Assembly: GCF_004010195.1 (NCBI RefSeq)
Contig: NC_057718.1
Location: 44,423,341-44,487,340 of the forward strand
Length of the DNA: 64,000 nt
From: Chiloscyllium plagiosum
Lineage: Eukaryota
Reading direction: 5' to 3'
This document shows, piece by piece, positions 42,845 to 61,180 of this stretch. Both the position numbers and the translations under genes were made by a program. Each line of letters starts with the position of its first letter. The stretch's first letter is position 1. The notes below the pieces were generated by a model. The model ran no database searches and was not told where the DNA came from. It saw nothing but the letters and a program-made list of their open reading frames with translations.

Positions 42845-43650
42845 TGCTGCTGAAAAAGCACATATGGTCAGGCAGCATCTGAGGAGCAGGAGAGTCAACG
42901 TTTTGGACATAAGCTCTTCATCAGGAATGAGGCTTGTGGGCCAAGGGGGCTGAGAGATAATGGGAGGTGGGTGGGGGTGGGGCGTGAAAGTGAGAGGTTG
43001 GAGAGGAGGGTGGAGCAGATAGATGGAAAGGAAAATGGACAGGTAGGACAGTTCAAGAGAGCAGTACCAAGTTGGGAATTTGGGACTGGGATAAGGTGGG
43101 GGAGGTGAAAATGGGGAAACTGGTGAAATCCACATCGATCCCATGTGGTTGGAGGGTCCCAAGGTGGAAGATGAGGTATGCTTTCTCCAGGCTTCAAGTG
43201 GTTAGGGTTTGGCAATGGAGGAGGCCCAGGACCTGTACGTCCTTGGTGCAGTAGGAAGGGGAGTTAAAGTATTCAGCTACAGGGCAATGGGGTTGGTTGG
43301 TGCGGGTATCCTAGAGATGTTCTCTAAACAATCTGTAAGTCGGCATCCTGTTTCCCCAATGGAAACGAGACCACATCAGGTGTAACGGATGCAGAAGAGG
43401 ACATTCGATGAAGCACAGGTGAATTTCTGTTGGAAATGGAAGGATCCTTTGGGGCCTTGGACAGAGGTGAGAGTGGAAGTGAGCACAGGTTCTGCACTTC
43501 TTGCCATTGCAGGGGAAGATGGGTTGGTGGGAGGGCGTGGACCTGACAAGGGAGTTGTGGAGTGAATGGCCTCTCCAAAACACAGATAGGGGTGGGGAGA
43601 GAAATATATCTCTGGTGGGGGGGTCTGTTTGTAGGTGGCAGAAATGGTGC
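42845..43650 (-). mobile_element. Second Penelope-like element 3' fragment (GIY-YIG region, 3'UTR, mutated hammerhead)
   Basis: QGPKGSFHFQQKFTCASSNVLFCIR followed by a CGLVSIGETG-like motif; hammerhead-like tail at 42893-42928 (CUGAUGA...AAAACGUU, G12 mutated). Confidence 0.85.
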
Positions 43651-52898: not shown

Positions 52899-53064
52899 TA
52901 GACAAGCTGGGGAGCTGGAAGAATACGGCAAGCCAGACAGCATCAGGAGGTGGAGAAGTAGATGTTTCGGGTATAACCCTTCTTCAGGAATTCCTGGCTT
53001 GTTGTGTTCTTCCAGCCCCCTGCTTGTCTACTTTGGATTCCAGTATCTGCAGTTTTTCTGTCAT
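52899..53064. mobile_element. Short palindromic PLE-derived element (hammerhead-like motif on - at about 52957-52990)
   Basis: CUGAAGA-A-GGGU-uau-ACCC-GAA-ACAU-C on minus strand; TSD-like ttaactgcagat (52887-52898) and ttaaatgcagat (53065-53076). Confidence 0.75.
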
Positions 53065-58086: not shown

Positions 58087-58259
58087 GAGAAATTGAGTAC
58101 TGCAGATGCTGGAGATCAGAGTCATGACTGTGTTGCTGGAAAAGCACAGCAGGTCAGGCAACATCATGATGAAGGGCTAATGCCCGAAACATCGATTCTC
58201 CTGCTCCTCGGATGCTGCCTGACCTGCTGTGCTTTTCCAGCATCACACTCTCGACTCTC
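58087..58259. mobile_element. Short palindromic PLE-derived element (degenerate hammerhead on +)
   Basis: TSD ttcttgaatag at 58076-58086 and 58260-58270; inverted gctggaaaagcacagcaggtcaggca arms; atgatgaagggctaatgcccgaaacatc. Confidence 0.85.
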
Positions 58260-58624
58260 TTCTTGAATAGCAGTGCCACATTACCTATCAACCAGTCCTC
58301 TGGCACCTCTCCTGTGGCTACAAAGGAATTGGAAATTATTTCTAGAACCCTTGTTATGTTCTTCCTTGCCTGACACTACAGCCTGGGATACATTTCATCT
58401 ACTTGTAAGTTGGTCAGACCACTCAGAATCTCCTGTCTGTCTACGCTAATTTATTTAATTACATCACGGCACTTCTCCCTAATTTCTACACCCACATCAT
58501 TCCTCTCACAAGTGAACATTGACACAAAGTATTTGTTTAGAACCCTACCTACATCCTCTGGCTCCATGCAAAAATTGCCACTATGGCCCTTAATGGGCCC
58601 TTTTCTTTCCCTAGTTATCATTTT

Positions 58625-58862
58625 TGAAACTTTATTGCTGGAATAGCACAGCAGGTCAGGCAGCATCCAGGGAACAGGAGATTCGACGTTTCGGGCACAG
58701 GCCCTTCTTCAGGAATGAGCAGAGAGTGTTCAGCAGGAGAAGATAAAAGGTAGGGAGGAGGGACTGGGAGGAGGGGCGTTGGAGGATGCTGCCTGACCTG
58801 CTGTGCTGTTCCAGCAATAAAGTTTCAACTTTGATCTCCAGCATCTGCAGACCTCACTTTCT
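58625..58862. mobile_element. Short palindromic PLE-derived element with hammerhead
   Basis: Inverted arms about 58624-58668 and 58784-58828; TSD cctagttatcatttt at 58610-58624 and 58863-58877; inserted in CR1. Confidence 0.85.
58681..58716 (-). ncRNA. Minimal type I hammerhead ribozyme motif, apparently intact
   Basis: AUUC-CUGAAGA-A-GGGC-cugu-GCCC-GAA-ACGU-C-GAAU: helix I 4 bp, helix II 4 bp, palindromic ACGU, GUC cleavage triplet. Confidence 0.8.
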
Positions 58863-59459
58863 CCTAGTTATCATTTTACCTTTCATGCACTTCTAAATTA
58901 ACTTAGGATTTTCCTTTATTTTGGCTGCCATTATTGTTTCATGCACCCCCCATTTTGCTCTCCTAATTTCTTTTTCAAGTTCCCCTTTATATATTCTGTA
59001 TTCCTCTAGGGCTTCTTCTTGAATCCTCGGCATCTTCCATAAGCTTCCCTCCTTTTCTTCATCCAATCTTGTATATCCCTTAATATCCAGGGTTCATTGG
59101 ATTTATTGGTCCCATCATTTACCTTTATTGGAACATATTGATTGTGTACTTTCCTTATTTCATTCTTGAAAGCATCCCACTGCTCTGACACAGATTTACC
59201 TTGAAGTATCTGTTCCCAATTCACTTTGTCTAAATCATATCTGATTTTATTAAAACCAGCCTTCCCTCAGTTTAGAACTTTGATTTCAGGCTTGACCTTG
59301 TCTTTTCCATAACAATCTCGAATCTAATGCGTTATCATCACTGTCTGCAAAATGCTGCCCTACTGATACTGCAACCACTTGCCTGACTTCATTACCTAAA
59401 ATTAAGTCCAGGACCATGCCCTCTTCATTTGGAGATAATGACGAGATGATGTAACAGTA

Positions 59460-60965: not shown

Positions 60966-61180
60966 TGTCCAGAGTGTGGTGCTGGAAAAACACAGCAGGT
61001 CAGGTAGCATCTGAGGAGCATGAGAATAGACTTTTCAGGCAAAAGCCCTTCATTCAGGAATGAATGGCTTTTGCCCGAAATGTCAATTCTCCTGCTCCTC
61101 GGATTCTGCCTCACTGGCTGTGCTTTTCCAACACCACACTCGCGACCCTGATCTCCAGCATCTGCAGTTCTCGGTTCCTC
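60966..61180. mobile_element. Short palindromic PLE-derived element with two back-to-back degenerate hammerheads
   Basis: Long inverted arms; TSD-like cattgttgcattat (60952-60965) and cattattgcattat (61181-61194). Confidence 0.82.

What the first reader, a model, noticed from the sequence alone, without database searches (positions are those of the whole stretch)
58610..58877. Intact-looking minimal hammerhead ribozyme inside a TSD-flanked palindromic mini-element
Seen: the minus strand at 58716-58681 reads AUUC-CUGAAGA-A-GGGC-cugu-GCCC-GAA-ACGU-C-GAAU. That gives a full catalytic core, 4-bp helices I and II, and a palindromic ACGU where helix III should be. It lies in a 238-bp element with about 45-bp inverted arms and a 15-bp TSD, and the CpGs are retained, which suggests a young insertion. 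Established: Penelope-like elements carry minimal type I hammerheads thought to cleave as dimers through palindromic helix III. Inference: this is a recently mobilised, non-coding, ribozyme-carrying PLE derivative (retrozyme-like) in a shark genome.
Basis: partly seen in the sequence, partly recalled or inferred. Interest (0 to 1): 0.8.

Follow-up and report, generated by a model that had tools for sequence, protein, structure and literature searches.

The report
Truncated Penelope retroelement insert with hammerhead
The hammerhead motif and the duplicated, hairpin-shaped insert are real, but together they are one ordinary dead-end insertion of a very abundant Penelope-like retrotransposon, likely made by copying two RNA ends towards each other, and not a small mobile element of its own.

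Summary
The minus strand at 58716-58681 carries a complete minimal type-I hammerhead, inside a 237-bp insert with 43-nt inverted arms and an exact 15-bp target duplication.

The insert is two 5'-truncated end pieces of a Penelope-like element (PLE), set head to head. One is 158 nt on the minus strand and ends at the short end. The other is 79 nt on the plus strand and ends with the 36-nt PLE "tail".

- The joint between the two pieces occurs once in the 3.56-Gb genome, so the insert did not spread as a unit.
- The arms carry different subfamily variants, found 48 and 20,827 times.
- Longer copies lead upstream into a GIY-YIG endonuclease ORF.
- In 384 places the hammerhead region runs through the tail into the ORF start, which is the canonical pLTR-ORF order.
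- The exact 36-nt hammerhead occurs 8,512 times.
- In an unbiased sample, 45 of 77 copies start at the hammerhead's 5' edge and none at its cleavage site. All 17 head-to-head pairs have the full tail on one arm only.

All of this matches published PLE architecture and min-HHR features. Earlier notes of this scan on the same genome reached the same reading. It is a new member of a known kind, of low interest. Self-cleavage is untested.

The parts
58610..58624 (.). Left copy of the 15-bp target-site duplication CCTAGTTATCATTTT
   Evidence: Exact direct repeat. Other insertions of the family have their own 9-17 bp duplications.
58626..58783 (-). 158-nt 5'-truncated copy of the PLE terminal region (3' UTR / pLTR). 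It ends at the 'short' end ...CAATAAAGTTTCA and carries the rarer A variant (GCTGTGCTATTCC).
   Evidence: 98-100% identical to 40 of 40 scored genomic copies over this span. It has one difference from the L004 copy. The A variant occurs 48 times in the genome.
58681..58716 (-). Minimal type-I hammerhead motif. Helix I is AUUC/GAAU and the first core box is CUGAAGA, followed by an unpaired A. Helix II is GGGC-cugu-GCCC and the second box is GAA. Helix III is the palindrome ACGU, with C17. The predicted cut lies between 58685 and 58684.
   Evidence: Sequence; descriptor hit; 8,512 exact genomic copies. The features match the published min-HHR description (Cervera & de la Pena 2014, whole text read).
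58784..58862 (+). 79-nt inverted partner copy: the last 43 nt of the same terminal region, plus AAC, plus the PLE 'tail' TTTGATCTCCAGCATCTGCAGACCTCACTTTCT. It carries the majority G variant (GCTGTGCTGTTCC).
   Evidence: query 1-79 matches the long 3' end of other copies. The tail is present in 12 of 30 loci. The G variant occurs 20,827 times.
58863..58877 (.). Right copy of the 15-bp target-site duplication

Best explanation
This is a single dead-on-arrival insertion of an abundant Penelope-like retrotransposon, likely produced when the element's enzyme primed DNA copies of two template RNAs from both cut strands of the target. The two copies broke off early and were joined head to head.

Shown:
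- The insert consists of a 158-nt and a 79-nt 5'-truncated copy of the element's terminal region in opposite orientation.
- Their 3' ends face outward.
- The optional 36-nt tail sits on one end only.
- A 15-bp target duplication flanks the whole.
- The hammerhead lies in the longer arm because every copy longer than about 95 nt carries it.

Inferred:
- Both target strands were used for target-primed reverse transcription.
- Two different RNAs served as templates.
- The joint formed by end joining with little or no homology.

For the family, the hammerhead sits about 95 nt before the short end of the terminal repeat. It lies upstream of the ORF start in tandem copies. The template RNA likely begins at the hammerhead's first nucleotide.

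At this locus the motif is predicted to be inert. A lone monomer cannot form helix III. An RNA of the insert would fold into the 43-bp arm hairpin instead.
For: Identity as a PLE:
- Copies extend upstream to variable lengths.
- They lead into an ORF with a GIY-YIG domain (PF01541, E 7.9e-5, above the cut-off).
- The terminal region runs through the tail into the 5' UTR and the ATG of the long ORF. There are 384 exact junctions, read in 8 loci, and the N-terminal ORF is seen.

One-off structure:
- The joint 34-mer has 1 genomic match, the window itself.
- Only the window copy matched query positions 1-237 contiguously among the 40 scored.

Two templates:
- The left arm has the A variant (48 copies). 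The right arm has the G variant (20,827 copies).

Standard architecture:
- In the unbiased sample of the first 77 places on contig C1, 34 places form 17 head-to-head pairs.
- In 17 of 17 pairs exactly one arm has the full tail.
- Among the first 100 exact hammerheads I counted 13 close (-)(+) pairs and 0 (+)(-) pairs (my reading of the list).
- Independent insertions have their own 14-17 bp duplications.

Literature:
- Craig 2021 describes an inverted 5'-truncated copy adjacent at the 5' end and a 30-40 bp tail at one end (passages).
- Frangieh 2024 reports that the anole PLE protein cleaves and extends both strands, and that RT starts at two internal sites which delimit the tail (main text).

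Across diverged subfamilies the variation falls on N7 (A/T/G), loop 2 and one helix I pair, while the core boxes and stem II stay the same.

Fold: the whole-insert RNA forms the arm hairpin.
Against: - No reverse-transcriptase domain was seen. The internal parts of long copies are withheld as N, so the PLE assignment rests on GIY-YIG, architecture and hammerhead.
- No Rfam hammerhead hit.
- No compensatory double changes in the helices. The stems are invariant or simply decayed.
- No evidence that the ribozyme cuts in vivo. None of the 77 sampled copies starts at the cleavage site; starts nearby are 96 x3 and 98 x1.
- The two-template inference rests on one variant site and could be a back mutation.
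- The dual-strand priming step is taken from an anole element in vitro and is not shown here.
- 5' ends were mapped by ungapped extension, which misplaced at least 2 of 77 (L063+, L065).
Confidence: 0.88

Rival explanations
1. One reading: the 238-bp palindromic unit is itself a non-autonomous, retrozyme-like mobile element that was recently mobilised as a unit.
For: - It has a TSD, a hammerhead and high identity to other copies.
- Composite palindromic structures can be re-copied. L032, L033, L034 and L036 share one left flank.
- The family does form 224-nt tandem arrays with one hammerhead per unit elsewhere.
Against: - The joint is unique in 3.56 Gb.
- The arms carry different subfamily variants.
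- There is no tandem repeat at this locus.
- Other palindromic inserts have different joints and their own TSDs.
Confidence: 0.03
2. The inverted structure arose on one RNA. The possible routes are snap-back of the first cDNA strand on itself, a template switch, or twin priming as known for L1 (recalled). Two RNAs on two strands would not be needed.
For: - Many pairs in the family are nearly symmetric.
- They show a recurrent microhomology joint, CTTCTTC-AG-GAAGAAG, in 5 of 17 pairs (L064, L079, L080, L091, L092).
- L015 is a symmetric palindrome.
Against: - The window's arms are asymmetric: 158 nt against 43 nt measured from the short end.
- They differ at the subfamily-marker site.
- Exactly one arm has the tail in 17 of 17 pairs. 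Simple self-copying of one cDNA would not give this, because the copied arm would reproduce the first arm's end.
Confidence: 0.25
3. A DNA transposon of the MITE kind, with terminal inverted repeats and a target duplication.
For: Inverted arms and a TSD.
Against: - The arms are the 3' end of a retroelement.
- The two ends are unequal, with the tail on one side.
- TSD length varies from about 9 to 17 bp among copies.
- No family of equal-structured copies exists.
Confidence: 0.01
4. The hammerhead-like motif is a chance match with no selected function.
For: - No Rfam hit.
- The fold is no more stable than shuffles.
- No covariation.
- No copies start at the cut site.
Against: - 8,512 exact copies.
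- It is kept, with the core boxes unchanged, in diverged subfamilies whose flanks no longer align.
- Variation is confined to N7, loop 2 and one helix I pair.
- All published min-HHR extras are present.
- The descriptor finds 0.1 hits per 64 kb in shuffles.
Confidence: 0.03

Closest known systems
Minimal hammerheads (min-HHR) in the terminal repeats of metazoan Penelope-like elements (Cervera & de la Pena 2014, PMC4209133; whole text read)
   Same: - Type-I topology.
- Helix I of 4 bp.
- An unpaired nucleotide between A9 and G10.1.
- A G10.1-C11.1 pair.
- Helix III reduced to a palindrome.
- Thousands of mostly solitary copies, with pairs on opposite strands 100-700 bp apart.
- Location in the PLE repeat next to the ORF.
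   Different: - Helix II is only 4 bp here; 7-8 bp was reported for Schistosoma families.
- This family is in a shark-like vertebrate genome.
- The family is very uniform: 8,512 identical 36-mers.
- Activity is not tested here.
Insertion architecture of endonuclease-bearing PLEs: 5' truncation, partial tandems (pLTR), an adjacent inverted 5'-truncated copy, and a 30-40 bp tail at one end (Craig et al. 2021, PMC8557442, passages; Frangieh et al. 2024, PMC11167929, main text)
   Same: All four features are seen in the family, and three of them in the window insert: truncation, the inverted partner and the tail on one end. There are two alternative 3' ends 36 nt apart, like the two RT start sites of the anole element.
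   Different: - Here both copies are extremely short, 158 and 79 nt, so the result looks like a hairpin mini-element.
- The distance from hammerhead to ORF start differs from the anole element, where the ORF begins inside stem II.
Non-LTR retrozymes of animals (Cervera & de la Pena 2020, PMC7229834, search listing only; Li, Clavereau & Pollet 2026 preprint, abstract and two sections read)
   Same: - A non-coding, hammerhead-bearing PLE derivative.
- Elsewhere in this genome the same family forms 224-nt tandem arrays with one hammerhead per unit.
   Different: - The window locus has a single hammerhead and no tandem repeat.
- No circular RNA evidence.
- The window copy did not propagate.
L1 5' inversions by twin priming (recalled, no call)
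   Same: An insertion with an inverted 5' part, flanked by one target duplication, made during target-primed reverse transcription.
   Different: Here the inverted part is a second copy of the same 3' end, overlapping by 43 nt, and it ends at a different RT start site. It is not the next upstream segment of one RNA.

Membership tests
Hammerhead ribozyme, PLE min-HHR type | Core boxes CUGANGA and GAAA, and a cleavage triplet N-U-H | tested here: met
   CUGAAGA, GAA+A and GUC are read.
Hammerhead ribozyme, PLE min-HHR type | Helix II closed by G10.1-C11.1, with an unpaired nucleotide between 9 and 10.1; helix I of 4-5 bp; palindromic 15.2-16.2 | tested here: met
   Seen here: A | GGGC..GCCC, AUUC/GAAU and A-CG-U. 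The criteria are from Cervera 2014.
Hammerhead ribozyme, PLE min-HHR type | Match to a curated hammerhead covariance model | tested here: not met
   No Rfam hit at gathering score or at E<=10. This is likely because the motif has no helix III hairpin (my inference).
Hammerhead ribozyme, PLE min-HHR type | Compensatory changes that keep the helices | tested here: inconclusive
   The stems are invariant, or decayed by CpG-type changes, in 75 distinct sequences. Variation falls on N7, loop 2 and one helix I position.
Hammerhead ribozyme, PLE min-HHR type | Self-cleavage 3' of C17 | not testable with these tools
   The only indirect test gave nothing: 0 of 77 copies begin at the cut site.
Penelope-like element (EN+) | C-terminal GIY-YIG endonuclease in the ORF upstream of the terminal region | tested here: met
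   L030 ORF of 202 aa, PF01541, E 7.9e-5, 23.3 bits against a cut-off of 22.6. The same ORF is in L104.
Penelope-like element (EN+) | Telomerase-like reverse transcriptase domain | not tested
   The internal parts of long copies read N. I did not pursue them.
Penelope-like element (EN+) | Pseudo-LTR / partial tandem order, with the hammerhead in the repeat ahead of the ORF | tested here: met
   384 exact tail-to-5'UTR junctions, read in 8 loci. A tandem copy is in L002.
Penelope-like element (EN+) | Adjacent inverted 5'-truncated copy and a 30-40 bp tail at one end | tested here: met
   Seen in the window. The full tail is on one arm only in 17 of 17 sampled pairs.
Non-LTR retrozyme | Tandem repeats of a hammerhead-bearing unit at the locus | tested here: not met
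   The window locus has one hammerhead and no tandem repeat. Arrays exist elsewhere.
MITE / TIR DNA transposon | A family of copies with the same two termini and a fixed TSD length | tested here: not met
   The joint is unique, the ends are unequal, and the TSD is 9-17 bp among copies.

The most novel reading that the evidence does not exclude
The hammerhead's first nucleotide is the start of the element's RNA. The promoter sits in the terminal repeat just upstream, the hammerhead is the 5'-terminal module of the transcript, and the tens of thousands of 95-130-nt stubs are run-off DNA copies. These copies would start at the RT start sites only about 94 and 130 nt downstream on the same RNA. 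Template RNAs are then used uncut, so the motif's selected role in this family would be something other than cutting the template before it is copied.

Support:
- 45 of 77 sampled copies start at core 66-74, with a mode at the first helix I base among singles with clear flanks. None starts at the cut site.
- The sequence TCATTCC around that base fits the initiator consensus as I recall it, and an A/T-rich TTTTAT lies 27-32 nt upstream (my reading).
- The repeat is contiguous with the ORF start.
- Short and long copies share the same variants, so they come from one source pool.

Earlier notes of this scan on the same genome made the same suggestion.
Probability: 0.35. Interest if true: 0.5.

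Novelty: new member of a known kind. Interest (0 to 1): 0.2.

Why it matters
By itself it matters little. It is one more truncated PLE insertion carrying the known minimal hammerhead, in a genome that holds more than 20,000 near-identical copies.

The family is useful as a natural record of how PLEs insert:
- Pairs with one tail.
- Two start sites.
- Mixed-variant arms.
- A sharp 5' boundary at the hammerhead.
- No boundary at the cut site.

These bear on the still open question of what PLE hammerheads are for. They agree with the anole in vitro result that uncut RNA is the main template.

Tried and rejected
- Rfam scans gave no hammerhead. The weak hits at E 0.029-9.4 (MIR2118 and others) are far below gathering score and I took them as chance.
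- RNA evidence: no RNA holder was listed. The raw single-cell RNA run X23 laid 0 of 8.3 million records, which is no test. The contig runs X1, X3 and X7 are of unknown kind. They show only that depth rises about fourfold at the hammerhead's 5' edge and stops at the tail end. I did not use the second lay call.
- The idea that the ORF starts at the ATG inside the terminal region (core 118, open through the tail) was dropped. The long ORF starts at a later ATG, downstream of the tail and the 5' UTR.
- Core position 1 as a special breakpoint was dropped. It was a product of how the query was cut.
- A separate master lineage for the short copies was rejected. The same variants at core 84, 106, 116 and 160 occur in 45 short and 14 long copies.
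- An alternative hammerhead reading that would cut at the motif's 5' edge was rejected on topology. There is no room for helix I between CUC and CUGA.
- The two long copies did not give a clean full-length element. L103 is truncated, and L104 is nested and partly withheld.

Full report
**1. The observation**

The minus strand at 58716-58681 reads ATTC-CTGAAGA-A-GGGC-CTGT-GCCC-GAA-ACGT-C-GAAT. An exact 15-bp direct repeat, CCTAGTTATCATTTT, lies at 58610-58624 and 58863-58877 and flanks a 237-bp insert. The insert's ends are inverted repeats. The element-derived arms are 58626-58668 and 58786-58828, 43 nt with one mismatch.

A descriptor of my own asked for the following:
- helix I of at least 4 bp
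- CUGANGA
- an optional bulge
- helix II of at least 3 bp
- GAAA
- up to 8 inner nucleotides
- U and a non-G base

It finds only this site in 64 kb. It finds a mean of 0.1 sites in 30 Markov shuffles, and none of those has a palindromic inner helix III.

Rfam finds no hammerhead, neither at gathering score nor at E<=10. The 53-nt segment folds into helices I and II as its minimum-energy structure, but it is no more stable than shuffles (z 0.62). So the motif is real as sequence. Thermodynamics and curated models add nothing.

**2. What the insert is made of**

The genome is 3.56 Gb, and the window is G000:C9:44423341-44487340. A search with the 237-nt insert gave 1,885 first-look candidates. 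All 40 that were scored match positions 80-237 (window 58783-58626, minus strand) at 98-100%. Only the window itself matches 1-237 in one piece. Positions 1-79 match, on the other strand, what follows the end of many copies.

The family therefore has two alternative 3' ends. One is a short end...CAATAAAGTTTCAAC. The other is longer by TTTGATCTCCAGCATCTGCAGACCTCACTTTCTCC, and 12 of 30 loci have it.

The window insert is thus two copies in opposite orientation:
- a 158-nt copy on the minus strand that stops at the short end
- a 79-nt copy on the plus strand that carries the long end

The 'inverted arms' are the 43 nt that the two copies share. The 34-nt joint between them occurs once in the genome.

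**3. The parent element**

Other copies continue upstream of position 80 for variable distances. They lead into an ORF with a cysteine motif and LLYIGETGR, which Pfam assigns to GIY-YIG (PF01541, E 7.9e-5, above its cut-off).

The end of the long 3' extension is followed, in 384 exact places, by GAAGATTTCAACCTACTGC. In the loci read, this leads into ATG CCT TCC..., the N-terminus of the long ORF seen upstream of a withheld stretch in L104/L107.

The order is therefore: repeat (hammerhead, short end, tail), then ORF ending in GIY-YIG, then repeat. This is the canonical arrangement of endonuclease-bearing Penelope-like elements, with the hammerhead in the pseudo-LTR (Cervera & de la Pena 2014, read in full; Craig 2021, passages).

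I did not see the reverse-transcriptase domain, because internal parts of long copies read N.

**4. Fit to published PLE insertion features**

Craig 2021 describes three things: high 5' truncation, an inverted 5'-truncated copy immediately adjacent, and a 30-40 bp tail often present at only one end. Frangieh 2024 shows for an anole PLE that the protein cuts and extends both DNA strands. It also shows that reverse transcription starts at two internal sites whose spacing is the tail.

For an unbiased sample I took the first 77 places on contig C1 that hold the 39-nt end region (20,827 exact copies genome-wide). I fetched them as 60 regions. I mapped their ends against a natural copy by ungapped extension.
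- 34 of the 77 places form 17 head-to-head pairs.
- In all 17 pairs one arm has the full tail and the other does not. Fourteen of the tail-less arms end at GTTTCAA(C) and three run about 8 nt further.
- Separate insertions have their own duplications of about 9-17 bp.

Among the first 100 exact hammerheads I counted 13 close (-)(+) pairs and no (+)(-) pair. The window insert is an ordinary example, with longer arms than most.

**5. One template or two**

The left arm reads GCTGTGCTATTCC, a variant with 48 exact copies. The right arm reads GCTGTGCTGTTCC, with 20,827 copies. The left arm differs from the A-variant copy L004 at one position only.

A back mutation at exactly this site is possible but unlikely at about 1% divergence. 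I therefore infer two template RNAs, one primed from each strand. This is an inference from one site plus the anole in vitro result.

The rival reading is snap-back or a switch on one RNA. It fits the many nearly symmetric pairs, with their recurrent CTTCTTC-AG-GAAGAAG joint in 5 of 17. It fits the asymmetric, mixed-variant window insert and the one-tail rule less well.

**6. The hammerhead in the family**

The exact 36-mer occurs 8,512 times, and the reversed control 0 times.

Diverged copies exist in the window (58161-58242, 42848-42985, 52914-52991, 60980-61133) and in other loci. They keep CUGA-N-GA, the unpaired A, GGGC/GCCC and GAAACGUC. They vary at N7 (A, T, G), in loop 2 (CTGT, ATGT, TTAT, TTTT, TAAT, TCAT, TCCA) and at one helix I position (GAAT against GATT). 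CpG decay is frequent.

That is the pattern expected of a conserved hammerhead. It includes no compensatory double change, so covariation is not shown.

All the extras that Cervera & de la Pena list as not built into their descriptor are present: a nucleotide between 9 and 10.1, G10.1-C11.1 and palindromic 15.2-16.2.

**7. Where copies begin**

Positions here are in core coordinates: core 1 is window 58783, the hammerhead is 68-103, and the cut is at 99|100.
- 45 of 77 copies begin at 66-74.
- 14 begin further upstream.
- 18 begin at 76-113.
- None begins at 100; starts nearby are 96 three times, 98 once and 101 once.

At least two assignments are artefacts of the method (L063+, L065).

Singles with clear flanks peak at 68, the first base of helix I. 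Short and long copies share the same variants, so the short ones are not a separate lineage. Contig depth in two runs of unknown kind also rises about fourfold at that edge and stops at the tail end.

My reading is that the template RNA begins there, and that the stubs are run-off copies from the nearby RT start sites. The sequence TCATTCC fits the initiator consensus as I recall it. This part is untested.

I found no trace of templates cut by the ribozyme. This agrees with Frangieh 2024: uncut RNA was the main substrate, and no reads ended at the cut site.

**8. Retrozyme-like forms**

Internally deleted derivatives join the ORF start to core 2, 43, 54, 68 or 69. A 224-nt unit forms tandem arrays with one hammerhead per unit, for example five units on C8.

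The family thus does give rise to arrays of the kind called non-LTR retrozymes. This is in line with the 2026 preprint of Li, Clavereau and Pollet, whose abstract and sections I read. That preprint includes one cartilaginous fish. The window locus is not such an array.

**9. This copy's likely activity**

A lone monomer cannot form helix III. The published min-HHRs cut poorly, and only as dimers or with protein. An RNA of the whole insert folds into the 43-bp arm hairpin, in either orientation. I predict that this copy is inert.

**10. Earlier notes of this scan**

I looked these up after my own sampling. There are 164 notes on hammerheads in this same genome. Several reached the same conclusions: palindromic stubs, 5' ends at the front edge of the hammerhead, and no separate mobile family. 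They agree with my results but are not independent evidence.

**Verdict**

It is wrong on the main point, since this is not a mobile mini-element. It is a new member of a known kind, and the interest is low.

Noticed in passing
Family-wide; sample loci L043-L102 (G000:C1): 5' ends of copies pile up at the hammerhead's 5' edge: 45 of 77 at core 66-74, with a mode at the first helix I base. None lies at the predicted cut site. The base sits in TCATTCC, which fits an initiator-like motif as I recall it.
   Followed up: partly
G000:C8:24157653-24158519; also C1:26522054-26522308 (L110) and about ten more places: Tandem arrays of a 224-nt (sometimes 194-208-nt) unit. The unit is made of the tail, the 5' UTR, the first codons of the ORF and the hammerhead region, with one hammerhead per unit. 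These are retrozyme-like arrays of the same family.
   Followed up: partly
window 58161-58242 (+), 42848-42985 (-), 52914-52991 (-), 60980-61063 (-) with 61050-61133 (+): Older, 70-86% identical copies of the same hammerhead-plus-end module, with CpG decay. Two of them also carry an inverted partner.
   Followed up: partly
L032, L033, L034, L036 (G000:C1): Four palindromic double-hammerhead structures share the same left flank for at least 70 nt but have different right flanks. So a composite that contains a palindrome has itself been copied further.
   Followed up: no
L009 (G000:C3:31128171-31131329), L106, L112-L114: Internally deleted derivatives in which the first 30-110 nt of the ORF are joined directly to the terminal region at core 2, 43, 54, 68 or 69. 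They look like template jumps during copying.
   Followed up: partly
L069, L046, L054 outer flanks: Some tail-less ends are followed by target sequence that resembles the start of the tail (TTTGAT). This may mean microhomology between the target and the RNA at the start of copying.
   Followed up: no
one search run table: Runs labelled with five different coded organisms hold 54-92% of the 31-letter words of the 301-nt terminal region. Near-identical copies therefore exist under several species labels.
   Followed up: no
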